From positions 21,289 to 45,288 of the forward strand of contig NZ_AUJO01000002.1 in the NCBI RefSeq assembly GCF_000424265.1: 24,000 nucleotides of DNA. The letters are read 5' to 3'. The position numbers were made by a program, and so were the translations under genes. Below the pieces are notes generated by a model that was given only the letters and a program-made list of their open reading frames with translations, was not told the DNA's origin and did no database searches. The stretch is from Butyrivibrio sp. WCD3002 (GTDB taxonomy: Bacteria; Bacillota; Clostridia; Lachnospirales; Lachnospiraceae). Of this stretch, positions 2,741 through 14,548 are shown piece after piece; position 1 is the first letter of the stretch, and the number at the start of each line of letters is the position of its first letter.

Positions 2741-3646
2741 CTATCTGTAAACAGGCTTCTGATTCTTTAATTCCTCGTAGATAATTCTGTAGTTATCGTA
2801 TCTTACCCTTGAGATTTCTCCCTTTTCCAGGGCGGTCTTTACGCCGCAGTCAGGCTCAGCGATATGACTGCATCCGCCAAATCTGCAGAAGGGTTCATAG
2901 GGCTCAAATTCAGTGTAATACTGTGGAAGTTCCTCCGCAGTGATATCCTTTAATGCCAGCGATGTAAATCCCGGTGTATCGAGGATATAGGTCTTCTCCT
3001 TATCATCTGAAAGTGCTGATACGAAGAACATCTCGGAATGTCTTGTTGTATTTCTTCCTCTTGCAATCTTCCTGCTAAGCTCCCCGGTCTCCATTTCAGC
3101 CTCAGGGTGAAGCTTATTAAGGAGAGACGATTTTCCAACGCCGCTTGGTCCAGCAACAACGGAAGTTTTTCCTCTGAGCTTTTCGCATAGCACATCAAGC
3201 CCCGCGCCTTCGTGTACACTTATGAAAATAACTTCATATCCGCATTTTTCATAGGCATCCATCAGCTCCTGCTGTTCTTCCTTTGTGGCTATGTCCTGCT
3301 TGTTAAAACAGATGATAACCGGCAGATTGTTTCGCCTCATCTGAATAAGGAACTTATCAAGAACGTTATAATTGGGATCCGGCTTTACTATTGCAAACAG
3401 AACAACCGCCTGGTCGACATTTGCGACCGGCGGTCTTATAAGCATGTTGCGGCGAGGCAAAATCTCGGTGATATTGCCTGTGCCGCTCTCTTCATCAATT
3501 ATCTCGATATTTACATCATCCCCAACGAGAGGCTTAATGCCGTCTTTTCTGAAAATACCTTTTGCCTTGCATTCATAGACGCGCTCGCTTCCGGTATTCA
3601 CATAATAAAAGCCGGCTATTCCTTTTACAATTCTCCCCTGCATCAA
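2741..3646 (-). CDS. rsgA: Ribosome small-subunit-dependent GTPase A (circularly permuted GTPase)
   Basis: Permuted G-motif order: NKQD (CFNKQD), then the P-loop GPSGVGKSSLLN, then DTPG. A C-terminal zinc knuckle is present (CRFGGCSHIAEPDCGV). The gene sits directly downstream of prkC, as in the conserved Firmicutes cluster. Confidence 0.9.
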   Translation of the reverse strand: MMQGRIVKGIAGFYYVNTGSERVYECKAKGIFRKDGIKPLVGDDVNIEIIDEESGTGNITEILPRRNMLIRPPVANVDQAVVLFAIVKPDPNYNVLDKFLIQMRRNNLPVIICFNKQDIATKEEQQELMDAYEKCGYEVIFISVHEGAGLDVLCEKLRGKTSVVAGPSGVGKSSLLNKLHPEAEMETGELSRKIARGRNTTRHSEMFFVSALSDDKEKTYILDTPGFTSLALKDITAEELPQYYTEFEPYEPFCRFGGCSHIAEPDCGVKTALEKGEISRVRYDNYRIIYEELKNQKPVYR

Positions 3647-5667
3647 TTCTCCTGAGTAAATGTAACTGCTCTTGTTACTGTGTACTCCTGCGTTGTTCCT
3701 TCGATAATGTTACCTTCAGCATCGGATGTGGCGGGAGTAGACGCCAGATACTTAAATGTTATAACACCTGTAGGAGACGTAAGTCCTGTTCTGCTTACAC
3801 CTGCAATCGGGAAAGAAGCAGTCTCTGTGTCAAGAAGTGATGTACCGTCAGCTGTCACAAAAGAAACATGAACGCTGATGCCATCAGTATAATTCTGACC
3901 CTCAGTAGGAGCTGCTATATCTCCTGAAAAAGCATAGGTTGTAGGGCTTGAAGGTCCTTTGGATTTCTCCATATTGATCTTGGTGCCCTTTTCAAGCATC
4001 GTTCCAACAGGCTGGCTCTGTGCTGTTATGGTGTCAACAGGATACTGCTCATTATTTACATCAATGATTGTTCCCTGAACAAGTCCTGCTTCTGCAAGGG
4101 CTGCAATAGCCTCATCTACAGAAAGGCCAACAAGATTAGGCATTGCTACCTGGTTGGATTCAGGCTCTTCCTCAGAGGAAGCCTCTTCTGCAGAATCGCT
4201 TGTTTCTGTACTTGCACTTGCAGAGGTCTCAGCATTTTTCTCTCCGCCTGTACTAACTGTGATGGTAACAGTTGAACCGCTCTCAGCAAATTCGCCTGCT
4301 TCCGGTGACTGTGAAACAACAGTATTCTTGGAAGCTGAACTGGTCTCATCATCAATCTTGGCTACCTGGAAGCCTTTGCTGTTAAGAATAGATACAGCCT
4401 GTGCATAAGACATGTTACCGCTTACGACATCAGGAACCTCTATTCCGTTCATAACATCGTTCGGATTATATTCACCTTCAAAAATAGTTACATCCGAATA
4501 ATCATCTGATCCAAATAATCCAATTCCCTTACCAACAAGGAAAATAACAATTACTCCCACAAGAACAGCAGCTACTATAGCAAGTGCGATGGTGATCTTC
4601 TCCATGCGGTTACCATACGCACCTGAATGTCTGTCGTACTCGTCCTCATCATCATCATAGTCGCCATTGTCATAGCCACGTCCTGATGAACCGCGTCTCT
4701 TCTGCTGTTCATACTCACGCATCACATCAGCATTAAGACGCATCTGCTCTGTGTCAGACATTCCGCCTATGCTCTTCTGCTCTGCCTCTGTGGCAACTCT
4801 TGTGGCGCTCTCTTCATCGGGATCCACAAGATTTACAAAATCATCATCAGGTGTGATAAGTGATCTCTTAAGGTCAGTTATAAGCTCTGCAGCATTCTGA
4901 TATCTTCTGTCAGGACTCTTCTGACAGCACTTCATAACTATCTTCTCAACACTGATAGGAATATCTTCGTTAAACTCAACCGGTGTGGGAAGGTCCTCCT
5001 GAATATGCTTTATGGCAATTGCAACAGTTGTATCCCCATTAAAGGGAAGACGTCCTGTAAGCATTTCAAAGAGTGTGATACCGAGTGAATATATATCACT
5101 CTTTGCATCCGAATAACCGCCTCTTGCCTGCTCAGGTGATGTGTAGTGAACAGATCCCATTACATTGGAGGTAATTGTGTTACTGGTGGCAGCTTTGGCA
5201 ATACCAAAATCTGTAACCTTAACCTTTCCTTCCTTTGAAATGATAATGTTCTGAGGCTTAATATCACGATGAATTATGTGATTATTGTGGGCAGCCTCAA
5301 GACCCATCGCCACCTGAATGGCAATACTGACAGCTTCCTTAACCGTAAGTCTTGATTTTTTCTCTATATATCTCTTAAGGGTGATGCCGTCAACAAGCTC
5401 CATTACTATGTAATGAATGCCGTTCTCATCACCTACATCATAGACATTAACAATATTGGGATGCATAAGGCCTGCAGCAGCCTGGGCCTCAACACGGAAT
5501 TTGGAGACAAAATTGTCGTTCTCCGAAAACTCCTGCTTAAGAACCTTAACCGCAACCGGTCTGTTCAATTTGTGATCTTTTGCTCTATAAACGTCGGACA
5601 TACCACCGGTTCCTATTTTTTCAAGGATCTCGTAGCGATCTCCGATCATCATTCCTATTTTTATCAT
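3643..5667 (-). CDS. prkC: PASTA-domain Ser/Thr protein kinase
   Basis: Hanks kinase motifs are present: IGTGGMSDVY, VAVK, HRDIKPQN, DFG. A TM helix follows (ITIALAIVAAVLVGVIVIFLV). The extracellular part has PASTA-like repeats (e.g. VAMPNLVGLSVDEAIAALAEAGL...). The gene overlaps stp upstream and rsgA downstream. Confidence 0.9.
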   Translation of the reverse strand: MIKIGMMIGDRYEILEKIGTGGMSDVYRAKDHKLNRPVAVKVLKQEFSENDNFVSKFRVEAQAAAGLMHPNIVNVYDVGDENGIHYIVMELVDGITLKRYIEKKSRLTVKEAVSIAIQVAMGLEAAHNNHIIHRDIKPQNIIISKEGKVKVTDFGIAKAATSNTITSNVMGSVHYTSPEQARGGYSDAKSDIYSLGITLFEMLTGRLPFNGDTTVAIAIKHIQEDLPTPVEFNEDIPISVEKIVMKCCQKSPDRRYQNAAELITDLKRSLITPDDDFVNLVDPDEESATRVATEAEQKSIGGMSDTEQMRLNADVMREYEQQKRRGSSGRGYDNGDYDDDEDEYDRHSGAYGNRMEKITIALAIVAAVLVGVIVIFLVGKGIGLFGSDDYSDVTIFEGEYNPNDVMNGIEVPDVVSGNMSYAQAVSILNSKGFQVAKIDDETSSASKNTVVSQSPEAGEFAESGSTVTITVSTGGEKNAETSASASTETSDSAEEASSEEEPESNQVAMPNLVGLSVDEAIAALAEAGLVQGTIIDVNNEQYPVDTITAQSQPVGTMLEKGTKINMEKSKGPSSPTTYAFSGDIAAPTEGQNYTDGISVHVSFVTADGTSLLDTETASFPIAGVSRTGLTSPTGVITFKYLASTPATSDAEGNIIEGTTQEYTVTRAVTFTQEN

Positions 5668-6407
5668 TCAGCTCCTCCGTCAGCAAATGGTTCTATCAAG
5701 ATAACGGCAATGTTGTCTTTACCGCCATGCTGGTTAGCCATATCAACCAACTTCTGTGCCTTCTCTATTATGTCTCTCTGCCCACTGACTATCATGCGAA
5801 TTTCCTCGTCCTCGAGCATATTTGTAAGCCCATCAGAACACATGAGCACAATATCCCCCTTCTCGAGTTCGACATTAAAGAAATCCACATCGACGCTATC
5901 ATCCGCACCTATGGCACGGGTAATAATATTCTTCTCCGCATGAGATCTGGCCTCATCCGGGGCGAGTCCGCCGGCACGTACCATCTCCTGAACCAGTGAA
6001 TGATCCCTTGTTATCTGTCTGATATTCTCTCCGATAACATAGAGTCTGGAATCACCTACATTAGCGACCTGCAAATACCTACCCATAACAGTGGCTGCCA
6101 CAACTGTAGTCCCCATTCCGTAAAGATGCTCATCTTCCGCTGCTTTAATCCTAAGCTTCTGATTAGCCTTCTTGATCGCATTCTCCAAAATGCGCACGGG
6201 GTTCTGTTCAAGAGACCTTTCAATCTCTTCTACCATAGTATTTACCGTATATTTAGATGCGTAGTCCCCGGCGTTGTGTCCGCCCATACCATCCGCAACA
6301 ATAAATACGTTAGAGAGATTCCCAATTCGTCTCTCGGAGGTAAACACGTAGTCTTGATTAAGTTTTCGTTTCTGACCCACGTCAGTTATTGAAAATGTTT
6401 TTAGCAA
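5664..6407 (-). CDS. stp: PP2C-family Ser/Thr phosphatase (Stp/PrpC)
   Basis: PP2C motifs are present: TDVGQKRKLNQD, ADGMGGH, SDGLT, GGKDNI. The track ORF extends to 6467. However, a TTG at 6407 lies 5 nt downstream of GGAGG (6417-6413 on the minus strand) and gives MLKTFSITDVGQ..., a typical length of about 247 aa. Confidence 0.85.
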   Translation of the reverse strand: MLKTFSITDVGQKRKLNQDYVFTSERRIGNLSNVFIVADGMGGHNAGDYASKYTVNTMVEEIERSLEQNPVRILENAIKKANQKLRIKAAEDEHLYGMGTTVVAATVMGRYLQVANVGDSRLYVIGENIRQITRDHSLVQEMVRAGGLAPDEARSHAEKNIITRAIGADDSVDVDFFNVELEKGDIVLMCSDGLTNMLEDEEIRMIVSGQRDIIEKAQKLVDMANQHGGKDNIAVILIEPFADGGAE

Positions 6408-6483
6408 GGATGCCTCCGATAAATTTTTTATTGGCATATATATTAGTAAGATATCGTTAAAAATCAATCTATGCCAATTAAAA

Positions 6484-7962: not shown

Positions 7963-8034
7963 TAAACGGACGCGAGAGGGGGATTCGATCTCCGCTCAAA
8001 ATATTTGGTAAACGGACGCGAGAGGGGGATTCGA
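7963..8034. repeat. Tandem duplication of an att-like/tRNA-3'-end-like 26-mer (two perfect copies, 46-bp period)
   Basis: taaacggacgcgagagggggattcga occurs at 7963-7988 and again at 8009-8034. Only the second copy continues as ...acc to complete the 20-nt core shared with the tRNA. Confidence 0.85.
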
Positions 8035-8037
8035 ACC
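8018..8037. repeat. attL core (direct repeat of the tRNA-Met 3' segment)
   Basis: Identical over 20 nt to 15807-15826; identity stops on both sides. Confidence 0.75.
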
Positions 8038-8094
8038 ACTTCTCGCTACGCAAATACCAGTAAAATAGCGGATGTTCATGATGTCACAGCCCAA

Positions 8095-8116
8095 ATGTAT
8101 TCAAAATGTATTCAAA
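8095..8116. repeat. Tandem ATGTATTCAAA x2 (candidate integrase arm-type sites, left arm)
   Basis: Two perfect 11-mers lie at 8095-8105 and 8106-8116. The same 9-mer core, TGTATTCAA, occurs twice in the same orientation at 15710-15729 near the other end of the element. Confidence 0.5.
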
Positions 8117-8161
8117 AAATCTAAGTCAGCTATCTACCGCACAGCGGAAAGATGCTGACTT
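8113..8161 (-). terminator. Intrinsic terminator after the 8167-8391 gene (hairpin usable on both strands)
   Basis: The stem is aagtcagc (8123-8130) / gctgactt (8154-8161). T-runs follow it on both strands (tattttttac on plus, agattttttg on minus). It lies 6 nt beyond the stop codon at 8167-8169. Confidence 0.55.
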
Positions 8162-8166
8162 ATTTT

Positions 8167-8391
8167 TTACATATTCATCACTGCTTCTTTAAGCTCATCC
8201 TCTGTCTTCACAAAGCTGTAAGGCTCATATTCTCCATACGCAGCTGGTCTGCTTATTGTAACAAGCTGTATTCTTTCCAATCCAACTTTTGAAATCAATT
8301 CTTTTTTTAAAGCTACAAGTGCCGGACCATGCTTTGTTTTATAAGCAATACAGCCTCGCTTATTTATATCTTTAGCTACAAGATAACACAT
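8167..8391 (-). CDS. Small hypothetical protein (74 aa)
   Basis: ORF with an ATG at 8391 (MCYLVAKDINKRG...), 10 nt downstream of GAGGAG. The longer track ORF (to 8439) lacks an RBS. No motif recognised. Confidence 0.5.
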   Translation of the reverse strand: MCYLVAKDINKRGCIAYKTKHGPALVALKKELISKVGLERIQLVTISRPAAYGEYEPYSFVKTEDELKEAVMNM

Positions 8392-8552
8392 TCTTAAGCA
8401 TCTCCTCAAAATCCAATAGTTGTATTGTATCCATAACAAAATCCTTATTTAGTGTTAGCTTTAATATATCATAGTCAGGTTTTTTCGACAATCAAGCCAT
8501 GACAGCTCATTACAATTTGAAATGTGTCTGATAATCAAGTACTGTAGAAAAT

Positions 8553-8572
8553 GATTATGACATGTCATAATC
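8553..8572. promoter_or_regulatory. Perfect 20-bp palindrome GATTATGACATGTCATAATC (candidate operator, two TATGACA half-sites)
   Basis: Exact dyad symmetry. The same outer arms (GATTATGACA ... TGTCATAATC) frame the 4-half-site array at 8629-8669. It lies in the intergenic region upstream of the 8391 gene. Confidence 0.5.
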
Positions 8573-8630
8573 CAGAAACACTCTATAATTCTTTACTAGA
8601 TGATCATTAAAATCCGCTTGTGAAGCCGAT

Positions 8631-8667
8631 TATGACACATTATGACATTGTCATAGCATGTCATAAT
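8631..8667. repeat. Left copy of a perfect 37-bp inverted repeat (TATGACA-cat-TATGACA-t-TGTCATA-gca-TGTCATA-at)
   Basis: tatgacacattatgacattgtcatagcatgtcataat. Its exact reverse complement lies at 9842-9878, including the asymmetric spacers. Confidence 0.9.
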
Positions 8668-8781
8668 CCGATATTTATGCATATTTCAACAATTAAAAGA
8701 AAATGTGTGTTGAAACAGAAATTATTTATGATAACACAATTTGCATGTAATTTTCAGTGGAAGTATGTAGATAATTAGTAT

Positions 8782-8822
8782 AAAAAATTCCCACTTCACG
8801 GATTTTATCCGCAGAGTGGGGG
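8782..8822 (-). terminator. Intrinsic terminator of the Big_2/hydrolase gene
   Basis: On the minus strand a 14-bp stem (cccac...gtggg, with one mismatch and two G-U pairs, 3-nt loop) is followed by AATTTTTTA. It starts about 10 nt after the stop at 8832-8834. Confidence 0.65.
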
Positions 8823-8831
8823 ATGAGTTTG

Positions 8832-9710
8832 TTATTCATATCTAGTTGCAATCCATTTTAAAGGATAAGAACCAACGGGTACGAATTCAGTATCACTTTG
8901 CTGAAGCCAGGAGGCTAATATTGTTGCTGATGTTATTTTATATTGTCTGCCCCATGCAACAGTACCGCCAACGTTTCCGTCCGCTGTTGTGACTATATCT
9001 CCATTTCGTGCAATAACTATTCCAGCATGAGGTCCAGCAGGTCCTACATAACCCACAACATCGCCAATCTTGATGTCGTATAGATTGTTGTGTCTGCGGA
9101 TGGGCGCTGTCACACCAAATACTGTGTCCTGAAGAAGCGCAGCAAATGCGCCACAAGCTACACATCTCTCATTGGTCGCTTCCCAAAAATATGTTTTATC
9201 CATACCCCAGGGTGTTCCATCAGGATACTGGGATTTCAGTGCCATAATTTTTGCCTGAGCTTCAGCTTCTGTGAGCTGAACAATTTCTTCTTTATCTGTT
9301 TCATATCCGCAGACTTTGCATTTCTTGCATTTGTATGCGCCATGTTCTGATGTTGCAGGAATAGTTGTTTCTACATATTTGTGCCGCTTGCAAAAGACTG
9401 AAAGCTGACACTTGTAGGTCTTGCCACCTACTTTAGCCTTGATGGTTGTCTTACCAGGCTTCTTGCCAGTTACGACACCCTTGTTTGAAACAGTGGCGAT
9501 CTTCTTTTTGGAAGAAGACCATTTGACTTTAGCGCCTTTAGCACCTTTGATTTTGAGCTTTGTGGTCTTTCCTACCTTGACTGATGCTTCTGTCTTGTTG
9601 AGTTTCACGGCAGCTTCAGCTGTTACGGGATTCATGATGCTGAGTGTGAGCGTGAGCATCAGGACAGAGAAGAGGCAGGAAAGCAGTGATTTGTTGTTTG
9701 CCTTTTTCAT
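8832..9710 (-). CDS. Secreted Big_2 domain / Cys-knuckle / papain-fold (NlpC-P60/CHAP-like) putative peptidoglycan hydrolase
   Basis: The RBS is GGAG, 9 nt before the ATG. Signal peptide: MKKANNKSLLSCLFSVLMLTLTLSIMNPVTAEA. Big_2-like segment: VKLNKTEASVKVGKTTKLKIKG...IATVSNKGVVTGKKPGKTTIKAKV. Cys cluster: CKRHK...CKKCKVCG. The C-terminal part has a candidate nucleophile Cys (ERCVACGAF) and a His (GPHAGIVIA) with GD/ADGN spacing, as in NlpC/P60-CHAP enzymes. Confidence 0.6.
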   Translation of the reverse strand: MKKANNKSLLSCLFSVLMLTLTLSIMNPVTAEAAVKLNKTEASVKVGKTTKLKIKGAKGAKVKWSSSKKKIATVSNKGVVTGKKPGKTTIKAKVGGKTYKCQLSVFCKRHKYVETTIPATSEHGAYKCKKCKVCGYETDKEEIVQLTEAEAQAKIMALKSQYPDGTPWGMDKTYFWEATNERCVACGAFAALLQDTVFGVTAPIRRHNNLYDIKIGDVVGYVGPAGPHAGIVIARNGDIVTTADGNVGGTVAWGRQYKITSATILASWLQQSDTEFVPVGSYPLKWIATRYE

Positions 9711-9788
9711 TGGTTATTTCTCCTTACATTCTGACAAGCAAACGTTGCTTATCAAAATTATATTTATCTTATTATTTTTATCTATATA

Positions 9789-9828
9789 AAAAGTAACCCA
9801 TTCCGGTGCTTCTTTTGGGTTACTTTTT
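9789..9828. terminator. 12-bp perfect hairpin with A/T-runs on both sides (possible bidirectional terminator/insulator)
   Basis: aaaagtaaccca (9789-9800) pairs with tgggttactttt (9816-9827) across a 15-nt loop. It lies between the right inverted repeat and the promoter region of the 9710 gene. Confidence 0.45.
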
Positions 9829-9841
9829 CATGATCAATGTC

Positions 9842-9878
9842 ATTATGACATGCTATGACAATGTCATAATGTGTCATA
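9842..9878. repeat. Right copy of the perfect 37-bp inverted repeat
   Basis: attatgacatgctatgacaatgtcataatgtgtcata is the exact reverse complement of 8631-8667. Confidence 0.9.
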
Positions 9879-10253
9879 CCAGAATAAGCAGCCCATACAG
9901 GTATATCCAAAGGGGTTACTTTTAAATAATTAACCCATATAGGGACACTAAAGGGGCTACTTATAATAAATAGCCCCTTTGGAGACCCTCATGTTGCATT
10001 ATTATATCACAGCGACAAGAATTAATAAATGCACGTCTTAACTTAATACAATGCATACCTTAATTTATATAGGTCCGTTAATTTATTTTTGATAGAGAAA
10101 CTTTTTATATTTGCATTTGTTATCCGGGCTACTTAGTGCACAATGAAGAAACTTTAGATAAATATGTTTACCACAATAAAATATTATTCTTGTACCAATG
10201 GTGCAGTCACCCATATAATAGAATGCGACATCAAATTAAGGAATGTAACATAA

Positions 10254-10712
10254 ATGAAAAGATGTACAGAATTATCAGTCGAGCAAATACTTAAAGAAAA
10301 GTGCATATCAATTGGAACAATCCCAAAAGAGATTGCAGAATTCATTACAACTAAAAAGCCTGATCTTCATATAGATACTACGTCAGAAATATCATTTTGG
10401 GATAATCGTATTACACATACTGAAAATCATAAAGATGATTTTATGTCCGATATAATGTATGACGATTGTTTCAGGTCAATTCCTGACTTCATCAAGAATC
10501 CTGATGTAATAAGTATAAAGAAAGACAACAGCAGCATTTCGTTTATTAAAAGGTTGACACAGGATATAAGTGTTGTTGTCAGGATCACTAACAAAGGAAC
10601 GTATTCTTATCGTACAATGTATCCGCTTATGTCAGCGCAGCTAGATAAATATCTAGCAGATGGCACAGCATGGGAATATCCCAAAAACGATATTGACTCA
10701 GAGAATGAATAG
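10254..10712 (+). CDS. Hypothetical protein; possibly a PBECR-type (phage Barnase-EndoU-ColicinE5/D-RelE-like) nuclease-fold protein
   Basis: 152-aa ORF with a weak RBS (AAGGAA, 10 nt upstream). A candidate promoter is TTGTAC-N18-TATAAT at 10190-10219. The motifs FWDNRITHTENHKDDF, then IPDFIKNPDVI, then a beta-rich tail resemble my recollection of PBECR domains. This is not verified. Confidence 0.4.
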   Translation: MKRCTELSVEQILKEKCISIGTIPKEIAEFITTKKPDLHIDTTSEISFWDNRITHTENHKDDFMSDIMYDDCFRSIPDFIKNPDVISIKKDNSSISFIKRLTQDISVVVRITNKGTYSYRTMYPLMSAQLDKYLADGTAWEYPKNDIDSENE

Positions 10713-10720
10713 GTTATAAT
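10693..10720 (+). promoter_or_regulatory. Near-consensus sigma-A promoter firing into a non-coding region
   Basis: TTGACT (10693-10698), a 16-nt spacer, then TATAAT (10715-10720). The -35 lies in the last codons of the upstream gene. No credible ORF follows for about 800 nt. Confidence 0.45.
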
Positions 10721-11103
10721 AAAATTACCAAGAGATAGAAGCTGAGGACGGAACAGGCAGCCGTCGCGCCCTTGTGGTCTTAAAATGAGATGCTGGATTG
10801 CCACCCAGCCTCTTCTATCTTAACGACAAAAAAGTTCCTATCTTCTGTAAATATGCAGAAAGACGAGGAGCTTTTTTGTTGCCTTTTTAACTGCTATGTT
10901 GCAATTATTATTGTTCACAAAAAATATCCATCGATATGCCAAAGGCATATTCTTATATCTTCTCTATTACATCACGGTTGTGATGTCAATTGTCTCCTTT
11001 TTTATCACGAGCGTGTGACCAACCATCCATCAGTAAGCCACACGCTGTACTGCGTTGTAACTATATATCGTCCACAATATATCTTTATTGTGATATCACC
11101 ACC

Positions 11104-11240
11104 ACTTAGAGTGCGTGACATGAGGGTGGTTCAAAACTTAGAGTCCACGATTGCTGAAACGCAGTAATACTGCCCATCTTCTCCAGAGACTTAGAGTCTC
11201 TAAGGCGACTTAGAGTTGAAAAAAGATGACGACTCTAAGT
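11104..11240. repeat. Iteron-like cluster of the 9-mer ACTTAGAGT (4 direct, 2 inverted copies)
   Basis: Direct copies lie at 11104-11112, 11136-11144, 11189-11197 and 11208-11216. An inverted full copy lies at 11232-11240, and an inverted core (ctctaag) at 11198-11204 abuts the third copy. Confidence 0.8.
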
Positions 11241-11469
11241 CACATAACGCAGACAGAATCTGGGCTTGAATAAAAAACACTCTCTGACCACATATAATGT
11301 GGTCCAAAACTAAAAGAGCATAAGAGTCAGCAACACACCCTAAAAATGCACAGCATTTTTGTGTGCTCGGCACAGCCGAGGCTGACCGTGACATTCGCTC
11401 TATTCGATGTGTATTCTGCACGTGATATTTTCCTTTTTTTCGCAACTCTAAAGCGTGCTATCTTTGTTT

Positions 11470-11488
11470 GCCCATTTTGAAAATGGGC
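11470..11488. promoter_or_regulatory. Perfect 19-bp palindrome GCCCATTTTgAAAATGGGC upstream of the DUF5688-like gene (candidate operator)
   Basis: Exact dyad. It lies about 50 nt upstream of the ATG at 11540 and next to A/T-rich -10-like hexamers. It has no flanking T-run, so it is not a terminator. Confidence 0.35.
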
Positions 11489-11539
11489 CGGTGGGAATAA
11501 TGAAACTAATAATAACATTTATCCAAAAGGAGGATAAAA

Positions 11540-12445
11540 ATGAACGCAATTACATTTAACGAAACAATCAAAACAAAAGTCTCAAACATTCTCGCTGCAA
11601 GGCATCTCGATGTAGATGTTAATGTTGAACATCTAACTAAGGCAAATGGTATTGAATATGATGCCTTAACTTTCACCGGAAAAGATATGCTTCAACCTGT
11701 GATCAATTTGAATCAGTTCTTCCATTCTTATCAGTGCCACGATTCTAATATTGATGATATTGCAAATGATATCGCAGATATATATGAAGAATCTTTCCTG
11801 CCAGATGACGATTACAAAGTAATCTTCAACTTTGAGCAGGTAAAGAATAAGATATTTCCCTGCCTGTATAACACGGCTATCAACAGCAAAATCAGTGACC
11901 AATATATTCATCGTGAATACTTAGACTTGTCAGTATATTATTATGTCACTCTACCTATCAAGAATGATGGATCTGGCACCATTCTTATCAGTAGGAAGTT
12001 GCTTGATCTCTGGAATATATCAATTGAGGAGTTGGATCAGACAGCCTTCAATAACCTTCATGTAAATAAACATCCTCAAATAACCTCTATGTATGATTTG
12101 TTCAAGGATGAAAATGATGAAAAAGATATATCATACATAGATGATCTGTCTCGCAATATGTTCATTCTTTCCTGTAAAAGTGATACCAACGGAGCTATAT
12201 ACATGACAGATACCGGAATATTAGACCAGCTTTCAAGTATGACTTCATCTGATTTAATAATTCTGCCTTCAAGCAGGCATGAGCTGATTGTCCTGCCATC
12301 ATATCTTATGAAATCACATGCTGAAATAAATGATTTCAGATCAATGGTACACGAAGTCAATTCAACTGTGCTTCGTCCTGAAGACTTCCTCTCTGACAAT
12401 GTATATTGCTATTCTGCAGAGGATCATGAACTTAATATAGCTTAA
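11540..12445 (+). CDS. DUF5688-like protein (family common on Clostridia mobile elements)
   Basis: Strong RBS: AAAGGAGG, 6 nt before the ATG. The N-terminal pattern (MNAITFNETIKTKV...VEHLTKANGIEYDALTF...PVINLNQFF) and the C-terminal LIILPSSRHELIVLP motif match my recollection of DUF5688. Function unknown. Confidence 0.55.
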   Translation: MNAITFNETIKTKVSNILAARHLDVDVNVEHLTKANGIEYDALTFTGKDMLQPVINLNQFFHSYQCHDSNIDDIANDIADIYEESFLPDDDYKVIFNFEQVKNKIFPCLYNTAINSKISDQYIHREYLDLSVYYYVTLPIKNDGSGTILISRKLLDLWNISIEELDQTAFNNLHVNKHPQITSMYDLFKDENDEKDISYIDDLSRNMFILSCKSDTNGAIYMTDTGILDQLSSMTSSDLIILPSSRHELIVLPSYLMKSHAEINDFRSMVHEVNSTVLRPEDFLSDNVYCYSAEDHELNIA

Positions 12446-12452
12446 TCCAAAA

Positions 12453-13505
12453 ATGATTGACCGAGCCTGGCGCACAGCGCTGGGCTCTGAAAGGATAATA
12501 ACAAAAATGTATAACGGAAAACTTAGACCTATAAGTTATGCAACACCATCCATTACAGATAAGGCTTACTATAAACCTGCTTTTTACAAGGATGAATTTG
12601 CTATGTACTATGACAATCATGGTGATTCTGAAGTCCTCAAAACTCCTCAAACCATATATGAATACCTTGATACGTACGTCTACGGGCATGACTACTATAA
12701 AAAGATGCTTTCTGTTTTTGTATGGAAATGCGTTAATAATCACCGACCTACCGGTGCTCTCCTAGTTGCAGGGCAATCAGGAAGTGGTAAGACAGAAATG
12801 ATCCGAGCTTTAAACGAGATATACGACAATATCTACATATGCGATGGTAGCAGCATCACGCCTCAAGGCTATAGGGGAAACAGTAAGCTTTATTCAGGAC
12901 TTCAAATGTTAGACATGACTAAGGATGCTCCTATGCCCATATGTGTTATAGATGAAGTCGATAAGCTCATTGACTGATCGCAGTCCGGATGGAATGGAAC
13001 CGGTTTGGTTGCTGAACTTTTAAAGCTCCTTGAAGGAGGCAATGTTAACATCGGTACTGAAGAAAAGCCTAAGATAATTGATACTTCAAGAATTGCCTTT
13101 ATTTTGCTTGGTTCCTTCTCTTGCCTTGATAAAAAACATGCATCTTCACCAATAGGCTTTTCTACAGAAAATAGCGAGAAAAAATCAACATCCTTAAATA
13201 GAGATGAAGTACTAGCCATGATTCCGCCTGAGCTGAAAGGTCGAATTGAGCAGACTATCATCCTGGATAACTTTAGTGAGGATGACTATTTCAAGATAAT
13301 GAAAGATGAGAGATATTCGCCCATTAAACGGATAGAGCGCGAATTTAGTATATCTATTTCCATATCCAACGAAAAAGTCAAAAAGATATCTCAGGATGCC
13401 TTTCTCAATAAAACAGGTGTCAGAAGCATGAATAATGAAATCAATGAATTTGTGAACCAGCAATTTTTTGAGAATCCTTCTGTAAAAAAGATACAGATGG
13501 ATTAA
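12453..13505 (+). pseudogene. ClpX-like AAA+ unfoldase lacking the N-terminal Zn-binding domain, interrupted by one in-frame TGA (12975-12977)
   Basis: The two track ORFs (12453-12977 and 13005-13505) are in the same frame. Read through the TGA, they align colinearly with ClpX. TPQTIYEYLDTYVYGHDYYKKMLSVFVW matches [28 protein letters not shown]. Walker A is GQSGSGKT, the pore loop is GYRG (ClpX has GYVG), and Walker B is VIDEVDK. After the stop, GLVAELLKLLEG matches GVQQALLKLIEG, DTSRIAFILLGSF matches DTSKILFICGGAF, SPIGFS is the IGF loop, IPPELKGRI matches IPEFIGRL, and KTGVRSM matches KTGARGL. The second half has no ATG start. The start of the first half is uncertain (12453 or 12507). Confidence 0.7.
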
Positions 13506-13876: not shown

Positions 13877-14548
13877 ATCCAAAATTCATGCTTTAGCATT
13901 GTCTGTAAAATTTGGTAATTTTTACCAACAGCTGCCATATTAATATAATATATAGCGCTTTGGTTATCCTTCACGAAATTTTAGAATTGCTGTAAATATC
14001 GTTGATTTAGTATGTTCTCTATGCGTACAATTAATGTTGAGATATAAAAAAAACACTAGGAGGTATATAAATACGTCTAGGGACGACGACGGTTCCCCTT
14101 CCGCTTGATTCGCACAGGGCGGATGGATCTGCTGTAAAAAAACAGTAATAGATCTTCGCAATTGTTGATATGGCTTAGTGCTGGATGTGCCACATTAGGA
14201 CGTCGTATATTTATACGCATGTGGGAAACCGCTAATAGATATCTGAATCAGTATCTATTTTGCACAGAAACCGACAGACTAATTACATAGCCTGCTAACC
14301 ACCCGAACCAGCACAGTTGCAGAACCAAAGTGTAGTATCGCGTGTTAGTGACGCATGCTGACAATAAACCTTCTGTAGCTGTGCGTGTGTATATCAGGGT
14401 GGTTTTGTTTTGGATCCTGTTTTTTATAGGAAGGATTATTATGGCTGATAAGGATTCCATAATGCCAGAATTAGCGGAGATTGAATATTACTTTAGAATT
14501 GGAATAATACAAATTGATGACATCATGAACTCCGACAAGGAGATAATC

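What the first reader, a model, noticed from the sequence alone, without database searches (positions are those of the whole stretch)
8631..9878. Self-contained hydrolase gene cassette bracketed by perfect 37-bp inverted repeats
8631-8667 and 9842-9878 are exact reverse complements (37/37). They enclose 1174 bp that contain one complete transcription unit. That unit has a promoter-like region with a TATAAT (read on the minus strand, ~55 nt upstream of the ATG at 9710), an RBS, the 292-aa secreted Big_2/papain-fold hydrolase, and its own terminator (8782-8822). A 12-bp hairpin insulator (9789-9828) lies just inside the right repeat. Each repeat is internally a quasi-palindrome of four TATGACA half-sites with asymmetric spacers. 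This is the architecture of a recombinase target (symmetric binding arms plus an asymmetric core), and the two sites are in inverted orientation. The possibilities are an invertible segment (inverton/shufflon-like), a transposase-less mobile insertion cassette, or paired operator arrays that loop the DNA. No target-site duplication is visible next to the repeats.
Basis: seen in the sequence. Interest (0 to 1): 0.7.

Follow-up and report, generated by a model that had tools for sequence, protein, structure and literature searches.

The report
Repeated operator-like sites around amidase gene
The perfect 37-bp inverted repeats are real, but they are two copies of a palindromic array of protein-binding-type 7-bp sites that recurs through the control regions of a small Butyrivibrio genomic island, and related strains show no sign that the enclosed gene flips or moves.

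Summary
8631-8667 and 9842-9878 are exact reverse complements. Each is four TATGACA heptads spaced 10-8-10. The enclosed gene has its own promoter, RBS and terminator.

The "bracketed cassette" reading does not hold. A third site, the 20-bp perfect palindrome at 8553-8572, lies outside the bracket. Six independent related loci carry the same modules (two Butyrivibrio genomes, four metagenome contigs). In them the hydrolase gene always has the same orientation, and the two flanking arrays are direct repeats or partly degenerate. Only this strain has a perfect inverted pair, because the 21-bp interior of its right array is flipped between unchanged flanks. That flip depends on 7 asymmetric bases.

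Outer heptads and the 35-bp array length are invariant; spacers and inner heptads vary. The segment that differs between strains runs from about 8750 to about 10060, so its breakpoints are not at the arrays. The array occurs nowhere else in 185,579 species genomes.

Best reading: operator arrays in duplicated regulatory modules of a 7.8-kb tRNA-Met island that carries one or two variable secreted-amidase genes. The binding protein is unidentified. The closest analogue is the RHH repressor ArtA, whose sites contain CATGACA. Inverton and mobile-cassette readings are unlikely. Interest is moderate to low.

The parts
8553..8572 (.). Site P: 20-bp perfect palindrome GATTATGACATGTCATAATC, made of two abutting TATGACA heptads. 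It lies outside the 'bracket'.
   Evidence: It is conserved in all related loci. It overlaps the -35 hexamer of a + strand promoter-like site.
8562..8589 (+). Promoter-like site ATGTCA-16-TATAAT that reads towards array A1.
   Evidence: 10 of 12 matches. The TATAAT is conserved in the P1-type modules of L001, L002, L046, L101 and L105.
8631..8667 (.). Left array A1: TATGACA cat TATGACA t TGTCATA gca TGTCATA at. This is the left arm of the 37-bp inverted repeat.
   Evidence: It is identical in L001 and L002. In L046 and L101 the third heptad is shifted or degenerate, and in L105 the array is truncated.
8782..8822 (-). Intrinsic terminator of the hydrolase gene. It also forms a hairpin on the + strand.
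   Evidence: -18.1 kcal/mol, z = -4.3, followed by UUUUUU on the - strand.
8832..9710 (-). Gene for a secreted protein with a Big_2 domain, a Cys-rich linker and a putative papain-like amidase domain (292 aa).
   Evidence: The product is 100% identical to a protein of Butyrivibrio sp. WCD3002.
9757..9784 (-). Proximal promoter-like site TAGATA-16-TATAAT of the hydrolase gene.
   Evidence: 10 of 12 matches.
9788..9828 (.). Hairpin T: 13-bp arms with an A-run on one side and a T-run on the other, so terminator-like on both strands. Its left arm can also pair with 9910-9923.
   Evidence: (pairs I6, I7).
9842..9878 (.). Right array A2, in the flipped (R) state: at TATGACA tgc TATGACA a TGTCATA atg TGTCATA. 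This is the right arm of the inverted repeat.
   Evidence: The same R state occurs at L046 position 6013. The opposite F state, between the same flanks, occurs in L001, L002, L046 (position 7601), L101 (twice) and L104.
9880..9998 (.). H module: about 120 bp with two hairpins. It follows every array of this type in all loci.
   Evidence: (pairs I2, I4).
10001..10009 (-). Extended -10 box TGATATAAT on the - strand. It would start a transcript of about 205 nt that runs through H and A2 and ends at T.
   Evidence: Read from the sequence. It is conserved next to every T-A-H module and absent from the H' modules that precede the PBECR nuclease-fold gene (10254-10712). This is an inference; the start site has not been mapped.
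8167..8439 (-). Context: DUF6718 gene for an ATfaRel2-type antitoxin. It lacks its toxin gene here.
   Evidence: PDB 8pu2, E 1.2e-8, TM 0.91, 44% identity. The toxin gene is present in L105 and in L106-L117.
8002..8037 (.). Context: left end of the island (attL), a partial copy of the 3' part of tRNA-Met.
   Evidence: 86% identity to 15791-15826. Homology with all related islands starts at 8018-8025.
14342..15878 (.). Context: tyrosine integrase gene (14342-15745, +) and tRNA-Met gene (15804-15878, -), which form the right end of the island.

Best explanation
The two 37-mers are copies of a cis-regulatory array of 7-bp TATGACA units. They most likely act as operators for a small sequence-specific DNA-binding protein that has not been identified.

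Setting. The arrays belong to regulatory modules that are repeated within a 7.8-kb island integrated at tRNA-Met in Butyrivibrio. There are two module types.
- P-A: the 20-bp palindrome P sits on the -35 box of a promoter, and a four-heptad array A lies 85.5 bp downstream.
- T-A-H: a terminator hairpin T, an array A and a 120-bp hairpin module H, with a conserved extended -10 box just beyond H.
These modules flank one or two paralogous genes for a secreted amidase. The genes are variable and are exchanged or duplicated by ordinary recombination in the surrounding conserved DNA.

Proposed action. The protein would occupy P, where it blocks the -35 box, and the arrays at about +35 and +116 of two short transcription units. 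It may bridge P and A on one face of the helix. In this way it would set expression of the amidase gene and the neighbouring transcripts.

Origin of the perfect inverted repeat. It is a by-product. The array is a quasi-palindrome, and in this lineage the 21-bp interior of the upstream array was flipped between its 7-bp outer heptads. The flipped interior is now the exact mirror of the downstream array.

Shown: the repeat anatomy, its conservation pattern, the gene orientation, the flip, and the breakpoints.
Inferred: protein binding, the promoters and transcripts, and the regulatory effect.
For: 1. Conservation is that of binding sites. In 19 arrays from 7 loci the outer heptads and the 35-bp span never change. 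The 3-bp spacers and the inner heptads vary, giving 8 sequence variants.
2. The same heptad forms a separate perfect palindrome, P. It overlaps the -35 hexamer of ATGTCA-16-TATAAT. That position is upstream of the predicted start site, which argues for action on DNA.
3. The centre-to-centre distance from P to A is 85.5 bp. It is 95.5 bp in the modules where one extra heptad unit of exactly 10 bp is present. Helical phase is therefore kept (positions).
4. Heptads occur at spacings of 7, 8, 10 and 11 bp, in direct and in inverted orientation. This matches the operators of ribbon-helix-helix repressors. ArtA of plasmid pSK41 binds ACATGACATG sites that overlap -35 boxes, and its own operator is TTGTCATGACATGTCATGTG (PMC2777438). 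P shares ATGACATGTCAT with that operator.
5. The relative orientation of the two arrays is not conserved. They are direct repeats in L001, L002, L101 and L104, and both states occur in L046. Gene orientation is constant throughout.
6. The flip is local. In L046 the arrays at 6013 and 7601 have identical left flanks and near-identical right flanks. The reverse complement of one interior matches the other at 20 of 21 bases.
7. The window and L001 are about 100% identical over 8000-8750, 88-94% over 8750-10056, and 97-99% beyond 10100. The exchanged unit therefore includes T, A2 and H, and it is not bounded by the arrays.
8. The arrays are confined to this island family. They are absent from a paralogous gene in the same genome.
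Against: No DNA-binding protein has been identified.
- Pfam, PHROGs, NCBIfam and PADLOC find no HTH or RHH protein in the island.
- No small ORF with a ribosome-binding site lies in the intergenic DNA.
- The neighbouring DUF6718 antitoxin is an unlikely binder. Toxin-antitoxin loci whose antitoxins are 66-82% identical to it carry no such motif upstream.

The arrays lie downstream of the predicted promoters, not on them. They also fold well as RNA (-18.2 kcal/mol, z = -5.6), so action at the RNA level is not excluded.

The related loci are only 1-12% diverged. Invariance of 7-bp units is therefore weaker evidence than it looks.

How the interior came to be flipped is unexplained.
Confidence: 0.5

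Rival explanations
1. RNA-level element. The arrays are hairpins inside two short transcripts: P to A1 to terminator 8782-8822 on the + strand, and the extended -10 box at 10009-10001 through H and A2 to terminator T on the - strand. They would act as sRNA or leader structures, for example in attenuation upstream of the amidase gene, possibly bound by an RNA-binding protein.
For: - Each array lies between a promoter-like site and a terminator-like hairpin.
- The TGATATAAT box is conserved beside every T-A-H module.
- Folding is strong on both strands.
- The left arm of T can pair either with its own right arm or with 9910-9923 (pair I7).
- Flipping a Watson-Crick hairpin does not change its structure, which would explain why both states are tolerated.
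- The 33-codon ORF after A1 is not under coding constraint: 6 of the 7 substitutions change the amino acid, and the ORF is absent in the other variant. A transcript there would therefore be non-coding.
Against: - The same heptads form site P on a -35 box, where no hairpin RNA is expected.
- No compensatory changes are seen. The heptad sequence itself is conserved.
- In several P-A arrays the third heptad is degraded, which breaks the inner stem.
- No Rfam family reaches its threshold. The best hit is tsr25 at 21.6 bits against a gathering score of 63.
- H is used in both transcription directions, T-A-H versus P-A-H'.
Confidence: 0.2
2. Recombination sites for gain, loss or exchange of cassettes. 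The four-box palindromes would serve as crossover sites, either site-specific and attC-like or simply as hot spots. This would explain the one or two amidase cassettes and the hybrid modules.
For: - The number of cassettes varies: 1 in the window, L001 and L002; 2 in L046, L101 and L104; L105 is too short to count.
- The P-A-H' module before the PBECR gene looks like a fusion of P-A and T-A-H across an array. That is the product expected if a cassette were deleted between two direct arrays.
- The four-box layout resembles the R''-L''-L'-R' boxes of attC (comparison from my own knowledge).
- A tyrosine integrase is present in the island.
Against: - The breakpoints of the exchanged segment are near 8750 and 10060-10096, and a recurrent one lies at 8693. 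None is inside an array.
- All cassettes are paralogues of one gene, and each has its own promoter and terminator.
- The integrase resembles Xer and phage integrases, and its att site is the unrelated 3' end of tRNA-Met. Its match to integron integrases is negligible: E 0.0048, 16 bits against a cut-off of 265.
- No empty site was found, and no copy occurs outside this island.
Confidence: 0.12
3. A true invertible segment in this strain. A recombinase would flip 8668-9841 between the inverted 37-mers, switching the amidase gene relative to outside promoters.
For: - A perfect 37/37 inverted pair is present.
- A promoter-like site outside the segment, the extended -10 box at 10009-10001, reads into it.
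- The array has symmetric arms and asymmetric spacers.
Against: - The gene has its own proximal promoter and terminator inside the segment, so inversion would change little.
- The orientation is identical in all 7 loci.
- The inverted junction is absent.
- The inverted relation is not conserved, and in most relatives recombination would delete the segment instead.
- No invertase gene lies nearby.
- The central spacer between the inner heptads is 1 bp. That does not resemble a 6-8-bp tyrosine-recombinase core or a 2-bp serine-recombinase core (my own knowledge).
- The Logan contig break at the repeats is what a k=31 assembly graph produces. It is not evidence of two orientations.
Confidence: 0.06
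4. Transposase-less mobile insertion cassette (MITE- or MIC-like), with the 37-mers as terminal inverted repeats.
For: Terminal inverted repeats enclose a complete gene.
Against: - There is no target-site duplication.
- There are no other copies in 185,579 species genomes or in 2.9 million viral contigs, and there is no plasmid match.
- No empty site is found in relatives.
- In relatives the same 'ends' are direct repeats.
- A further half-site palindrome lies outside the element.
Confidence: 0.02

Closest known systems
ArtA (TrsN) operators of the staphylococcal plasmids pSK41 and pGO1: sites for a ribbon-helix-helix repressor
   Same: - The core sequence is shared. The ArtA consensus is ACATGACATG and its own operator is TTGTCATGACATGTCATGTG (PMC2777438); site P here is ATTATGACATGTCATAAT.
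- The sites overlap -35 boxes.
- Several promoters of one mobile element carry them.
- Units occur singly, in tandem or inverted.
   Different: - No ArtA-like or other RHH gene is found in the island or in the window.
- The unit here is TATGACA, not CATGACA.
- The four-unit 10-8-10 arrays lie downstream of the promoters.
- Binding has not been tested.
Omega repressor heptad arrays (WATCACW) of pSM19035/inc18 plasmids (from my own knowledge)
   Same: Both are arrays of 7-bp units in direct and inverted orientation that control several promoters of a mobile element.
   Different: - Omega heptads are contiguous, with a 7-bp period. Here the periods are 7, 8, 10 and 11 bp.
- The sequence is different.
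- No omega homologue is found.
Invertons: phase-variable segments bounded by inverted repeats, of the kind found with PhaseFinder (from my own knowledge)
   Same: A perfect inverted repeat of inverton-like length flanks a segment in this strain.
   Different: - The segment holds a complete gene with its own promoter and terminator.
- No second orientation is seen in any relative.
- The inverted relation is not conserved.
- No invertase gene lies nearby.
Integron attC sites and cassette arrays (from my own knowledge)
   Same: - The imperfect palindrome is built from four boxes.
- One or two cassettes in the same orientation are separated by such sites.
- A tyrosine recombinase is present in the element.
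   Different: - The cassettes are paralogues with their own promoters.
- The exchange breakpoints are not at the sites.
- The integrase is not of the IntI type.
- There is no attI site or Pc promoter layout.
Small hairpin-associated inversions, in which the sequence between short inverted repeats flips, as seen in chloroplast and bacterial non-coding DNA (from my own knowledge)
   Same: A 21-bp interior is reversed between 7-9-bp inverted repeats while the flanks stay collinear.
   Different: Here the flipped piece carries two more binding-type heptads. As a result, the flip produces a perfect long-range inverted repeat with a second array.

Membership tests
Inverton / site-specific invertible segment | Inverted repeats flank the segment | tested here: met
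   The pair is 37/37 in the window, but only in this strain.
Inverton / site-specific invertible segment | Both orientations exist among related strains or contigs | tested here: not met
   The orientation is the same in all 7 loci and 11 gene copies, window included. The inverted-junction pattern is absent from 123 loci.
Inverton / site-specific invertible segment | Both orientations exist among reads of one culture | not testable with these tools
   Raw reads are not available. The Logan contig L123 breaks 30 nt inside each arm, which a k=31 graph produces whether or not the segment inverts.
Inverton / site-specific invertible segment | The inverted relation of the two sites is conserved in relatives | tested here: not met
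   The flanking arrays are direct repeats or degenerate in L001, L002, L046, L101 and L104, and the left array is truncated in L105.
Inverton / site-specific invertible segment | A dedicated invertase gene lies nearby | tested here: not met
   The only recombinase is the island integrase, 4.5 kb away, whose att site is tRNA-Met.
MITE / mobile insertion cassette | Target-site duplication next to the terminal repeats | tested here: not met
   The flanks are gccgat / ccagaa, with no direct repeat.
MITE / mobile insertion cassette | Several dispersed copies or empty sites | tested here: not met
   The pattern is found only in the same island in 2 of 185,579 species genomes, and in no viral contig. 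No empty site occurs in 7 loci.
Integron cassette / attC | An IntI-type integrase with attI and Pc next to the array | tested here: not met
   The integrase matches XerD and phage integrases. The integron-integrase model scores 16 bits against a cut-off of 265.
Integron cassette / attC | Cassette boundaries coincide with the palindromic site | tested here: not met
   Identity breakpoints lie near 8693, 8750 and 10056-10096.
RHH-type heptad operator arrays (ArtA, omega) | Short repeated units in direct and inverted orientation, with the units conserved and the spacers free | tested here: met
   Across 19 arrays the outer heptads are invariant and the spacers vary. Spacings are 7, 8, 10 and 11 bp.
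RHH-type heptad operator arrays (ArtA, omega) | Sites overlap the promoters they control | tested here: inconclusive
   P overlaps the -35 hexamer of a predicted promoter. The arrays lie at about +35 and +116 of predicted transcripts. No start site has been mapped.
RHH-type heptad operator arrays (ArtA, omega) | A cognate small RHH repressor is encoded in the element | tested here: not met
   No RHH or HTH hit in four libraries. No plausible small ORF.
RHH-type heptad operator arrays (ArtA, omega) | Specific protein binding is demonstrated | not testable with these tools
   This needs EMSA, footprinting or DAP-seq.
ATfaRel2 antitoxin (DUF6718) of toxSAS toxin-antitoxin modules (neighbouring gene) | ATfaRel2 fold and sequence family | tested here: met
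   Pfam DUF6718, E 6e-32. The AF2 model matches PDB 8pu2 with TM 0.91, 44% identity and E 1.2e-8.
ATfaRel2 antitoxin (DUF6718) of toxSAS toxin-antitoxin modules (neighbouring gene) | An adjacent RelA_SpoT toxin gene | tested here: not met
   The toxin gene is absent in the window, L001, L002, L046 and L101. It is present in L105 and L106-L117.
Papain-like (NlpC/P60, CHAP, Amidase_6) cell-wall amidases (the enclosed gene) | A catalytic Cys at a helix N-terminus, a His on a following strand, and a family HMM match | tested here: inconclusive
   The Cys and His are conserved, and the Cys starts helix 185-198. Only 3 of 25 homologues hit Amidase_6 or CHAP. Neither this protein nor the family profile gives a hit for the C-terminal domain.

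The most novel reading that the evidence does not exclude
The four-heptad palindromes could be active recombination or flip sites. A still unknown enzyme, or the island integrase, would use them in one of two ways. It could invert the 21-35-bp array interior, which carries a promoter-like ATGACA-16-TAGCAT that would then point either into or away from the amidase gene. Or it could insert, delete and swap secreted-amidase cassettes. Either would amount to a very small inversion switch or an integron-like cassette system in a Firmicute island. The two array states found between identical flanks, the variable cassette number and the hybrid P-A-H' module are compatible with this reading. The breakpoint data and the lack of a suitable recombinase argue against it.
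Probability: 0.08. Interest if true: 0.75.

Novelty: new member of a known kind. Interest (0 to 1): 0.3.

Why it matters
The result removes a false lead: a perfect long inverted repeat around a gene is not evidence of an inverton. When a site is itself a quasi-palindrome, two copies can become a perfect inverted pair through a change in a handful of bases.

It also defines a compact regulatory system that can be tested. The system consists of three to eight TATGACA sites per locus (three here) plus promoters and terminators. It lies in a rumen Butyrivibrio island that carries fast-evolving secreted cell-wall amidase genes in variable copy number.

Finding the protein that reads these heptads would add a regulator to a poorly studied group of bacteria. 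It could also explain how such islands control a potentially self-damaging lytic enzyme.

Tried and rejected
- DUF6718 as the binding protein. Its model is the ATfaRel2 antitoxin, and ATfaRel2 is reported to bind its own promoter fragment (PMC10565793). However, toxin-antitoxin loci whose antitoxins are 66-82% identical have no TATGACA motif upstream. Rejected.
- Integrase arm-type sites. The arrays lie 520-1840 bp from attL, and none occurs on the integrase side of the att site. Rejected.
- Association with the PBECR gene or the skipping-rope RNA. Homologues elsewhere lack the arrays. Rejected.
- Intrinsic association with the amidase gene family. The paralogue in the same genome has no arrays. 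Rejected.
- Known RNA families. Only sub-threshold hits were found: tsr25 at 21.6 bits against 63, csRNA, and miRNA models. These are treated as chance.
- The 33- and 52-codon ORFs that start in or after A1. They are not conserved as coding sequence. Rejected.
- A small RHH or HTH ORF in the intergenic DNA. None was found.
- Phage, plasmid and viral relatives of the modules. None was found. The 24 viral hits to the 16-17-bp palindrome are, by my rough estimate of the collection's size, about the number expected by chance.
- Guilt by association, using unrelated metagenome contigs rich in the heptad. These are mostly repetitive or eukaryote-like DNA. One contig (L061) sits beside an Xre-type gene. 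The result is not informative.
- The Logan contig that ends inside the repeats. This is an artefact of the k=31 assembly graph.
Full report
1. THE OBSERVATION

The repeat is real. 8631-8667 and 9842-9878 are 37/37 complementary and enclose 1174 nt. The 37-mer has no other match within 3 mismatches, and none in 100 shuffles. The half-site TATGACA occurs 18 times in the window against 4.1 +/- 1.9 expected. Ten of those copies lie in three clusters:
- the two arrays, each TATGACA-3-TATGACA-1-TGTCATA-3-TGTCATA;
It lies 59 bp to the left of the left array, outside the "bracket".

- ORF 8832-9710 (-), 292 aa, with a signal-peptide-like N-terminus and a Big_2 domain;
- promoter-like TAGATA-16-TATAAT at 9784-9757;
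- GGAG before the ATG;
- terminator 8782-8822;
- a 13-bp-arm hairpin at 9788-9828 between an A-run and a T-run.

The "papain fold" is plausible but only inferred. There is a conserved Cys at the N-terminus of a helix and a conserved His. Three of 25 homologues hit Amidase_6 or CHAP. The protein itself gives no direct hit.

2. CONTEXT

The window comes from Butyrivibrio sp. WCD3002; the hydrolase and PBECR proteins are 100% identical to proteins of that strain. Host genes for RsgA, a PASTA kinase and a PP2C phosphatase lie at 2741-6467.

A 7.8-kb island runs from a partial copy of the tRNA-Met 3' end at 8002-8037 to the tRNA-Met gene at 15804-15878. A tyrosine integrase gene lies at 14342-15745. 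The island holds, in order:
- a DUF6718 gene;
- the hydrolase gene;
- a PBECR nuclease-fold gene, followed by a skipping-rope RNA (RF02924);
- a DUF5688 gene;
- a ClpX-like AAA+ gene, broken here by a stop codon;
- a gene for a 118-aa protein;
- the integrase gene.

The DUF6718 protein models as the ATfaRel2 antitoxin (PDB 8pu2, TM 0.91, 44% identity). Its toxSAS toxin gene is missing here. It is present in L105 and in every other DUF6718 locus examined.

3. RELATED LOCI

I scanned 185,579 species genomes for the four-heptad pattern with free spacers. Only two genomes matched, Butyrivibrio sp. JL13D10 (L001) and VCD2006 (L002), and both carry the same island. No viral contig matched. A looser three-heptad pattern, run on metagenome contigs, and look-ups by protein added four more independent loci:
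- L046, which is the same sequence as L067 and L072;
- L101, whose host flanks are 98.9% identical to the window;
- L104;
- L105.

Three results decide the matter.

(a) Gene orientation. The hydrolase gene has the same orientation relative to its neighbours in all 7 loci and 11 gene copies. The junction that an inversion would create is absent from all 123 fetched loci.

(b) Relative orientation of the arrays. The array upstream of the gene exists in two states between unchanged flanks.
- State F, tat-T-gca: L001, L002, L046 (position 7601), L101 (twice) and L104.
- State R, tgc-A-atg: the window and L046 (position 6013).
The reverse complement of the R interior equals the interior of the downstream array at 21 of 21 bases, and the F interior at 20 of 21. 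In most relatives the two arrays around the gene are therefore direct repeats. In L046, L101 and L105 the downstream array has a shifted, degenerate or truncated third heptad. The perfect inverted pair is peculiar to this strain. It depends on the 7 positions of the array that are not self-complementary.

(c) Breakpoints. The window and L001 are about 100% identical over 8000-8750, 88-94% over 8750-10056, and 97-99% beyond 10100. The unit exchanged between strains therefore contains the gene, hairpin T, array A2 and the 120-bp module H. Its breakpoints are not at the arrays. A second recurrent breakpoint lies at 8693, 26 bp beyond A1.

4. ANATOMY OF THE MODULES

Two kinds of module recur.
- P-A. 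This is the palindrome P, then 60-70 bp, then "ccgcttgtgRagccgat", then an array. P overlaps the -35 hexamer of a + strand promoter-like site, ATGTCA-16-TATAAT at 8562-8589.
- T-A-H. This is hairpin T, an array, and a highly conserved 120-bp module with two hairpins. It is followed by a conserved extended -10 box on the - strand (TGATATAAT, 10009-10001).

Loci hold one or two hydrolase genes, paralogues with divergent C-terminal domains. Each gene lies between a P-A module and a T-A-H module. A hybrid P-A-H' module precedes the PBECR gene in L001, L002 and L046. The window lacks that module, with about 330 bp replaced by 39 bp.

Across 19 arrays the outer heptads and the 35-bp span never vary, while the spacers and inner heptads do (8 variants). 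The centre-to-centre distance from P to A is 85.5 bp. It becomes 95.5 bp where one extra heptad unit of exactly 10 bp is present.

5. MOST LIKELY MECHANISM

Four features together are the signature of operator sites read by a small DNA-binding protein:
- the conserved 7-bp units with free spacers;
- the same unit used as a tight palindrome on a -35 box;
- spacings of 7, 8, 10 and 11 bp in both orientations;
- the preserved helical phase between P and A.
The protein may bridge P and A.

The closest described case is ArtA of pSK41. It is a 7-kDa ribbon-helix-helix repressor that binds ACATGACATG sites overlapping the -35 boxes of many plasmid promoters. Its own operator, TTGTCATGACATGTCATGTG, shares ATGACATGTCAT with P (PMC2777438).

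I could not find the protein.
- No HTH or RHH domain appears in any island protein.
- No credible small ORF lies in the intergenic DNA.
- The DUF6718 antitoxin is an unlikely binder, because close homologues elsewhere have no such motif upstream. This holds even though ATfaRel2 is reported to bind its own promoter fragment (PMC10565793).
The binder may be encoded elsewhere in the genome. The operator model is therefore an inference, and I rate it at about 0.5.

6. RIVAL EXPLANATIONS

RNA-level role (about 0.2). Each array sits between a promoter-like site and a terminator-like hairpin, and it folds well. The left arm of T has an alternative partner at 9910-9923. Against this reading: site P sits on a -35 box, there is no covariation, inner stems are degraded in several arrays, and no Rfam hit reaches threshold.

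Cassette recombination sites (about 0.12). This would explain the variable cassette number and the hybrid P-A-H' module. But the breakpoints are not in the arrays, the cassettes are paralogues with their own promoters, and the integrase is not of the integron type.

A true inverton in this strain (about 0.06) and a mobile insertion cassette (about 0.02). The comparative data, the absence of a target-site duplication, the absence of other copies and the absence of an invertase make both unlikely. Read-level inversion could not be tested. The Logan contig that ends 30 nt inside each arm is what a k=31 assembly graph produces in any case.

7. WHAT REMAINS UNEXPLAINED

- How the 21-bp interior was flipped between identical flanks.
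- What the H module does.
- Whether the promoter-like ATGACA-16-TAGCAT inside the four-heptad arrays matters. In the window both copies point into the cassette. In F-state loci the upstream one points away.

8. VERDICT

However, it is a strain-specific consequence of a palindromic, repeated regulatory site, not the boundary of an invertible or mobile cassette. The underlying system is a set of heptad operator-like arrays around variable secreted-amidase genes in a small Butyrivibrio island. I place it as a new member of a known kind, and its interest is moderate to low.

Noticed in passing
window 10737-10816 (+), with 10254-10712: A skipping-rope RNA (Rfam RF02924, 55.9 bits) lies directly after the PBECR2/3 nuclease-fold gene. 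The gene and the RNA region occur together in unrelated genomic contexts: L118-L122 match window 10210/10395-10838/10884 at 81-83%. This fits the published note that this RNA associates with one nearby protein family (PMC5737381).
   Followed up: partly
window 8167-8439 (-): The DUF6718 gene encodes an ATfaRel2-type antitoxin (PDB 8pu2, TM 0.91), but its toxSAS (RelA_SpoT) toxin gene is missing. The antitoxin is orphaned in the window, L001, L002, L046 and L101. The pair is intact in L105 and in all other DUF6718 loci examined.
   Followed up: yes
window 12453-13505 (+): The ClpX-like AAA+ gene is split into 174-aa and 166-aa parts by a TGA near 12975. It is intact in L001 (350 aa) and L046 (347 aa). 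Together with the orphan antitoxin, this suggests the island is decaying in this strain.
   Followed up: partly
window 7963-7988 and 8002-8037: Two adjacent partial copies of the tRNA-Met 3' end lie at the left border of the island. They may be the remnant of tandem or successive integrations.
   Followed up: no
window 8000-10100 compared with L001: The window and the different-species genome JL13D10 are about 100% identical over 8000-8750. They are only 88-94% identical over the hydrolase gene and its upstream modules, then 97-99% again. This points to recent recombinational replacement of the gene region.
   Followed up: partly
window 16284-16625 (+): A 113-aa fragment of an alpha/beta-hydrolase (BD-FAE / Abhydrolase_3) matches only the N-terminal half of the family profiles. 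It is probably a truncated gene just outside the island.
   Followed up: no
window 10713-11540: About 830 bp between the PBECR and DUF5688 genes holds no credible ORF apart from the skipping-rope RNA. The 125-aa ORF at 10790-11167 overlaps the RNA and has no family hit.
   Followed up: no
L104 (ENA k141_3382423) and L105 (ENA NODE_78937): These are variants of the island. In L104 an IS200-type Y1 transposase gene and a small HTH gene lie next to a hydrolase cassette. In L105 the toxSAS gene is present and the left array is truncated after its second heptad.
   Followed up: partly
L024 1067-2589; L052 1839-2092; L058 964-1182; L030 1815-1859; L061 8705-9055: Unrelated metagenome contigs carry dense arrays of the same TATGACA/TGTCATA heptad at 8-11-bp spacing. 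L024 has 75 copies in a 10-bp period, and the L061 array lies beside an Xre-type HTH gene. My search pattern selected these contigs, so their meaning is unclear.
   Followed up: partly
L123 = window 8638-9871: The Logan assembly of run SRR896039 yields a 1234-bp contig that ends 30 nt inside each repeat arm. This shows how inverted repeats longer than k fragment k=31 assemblies.
   Followed up: yes
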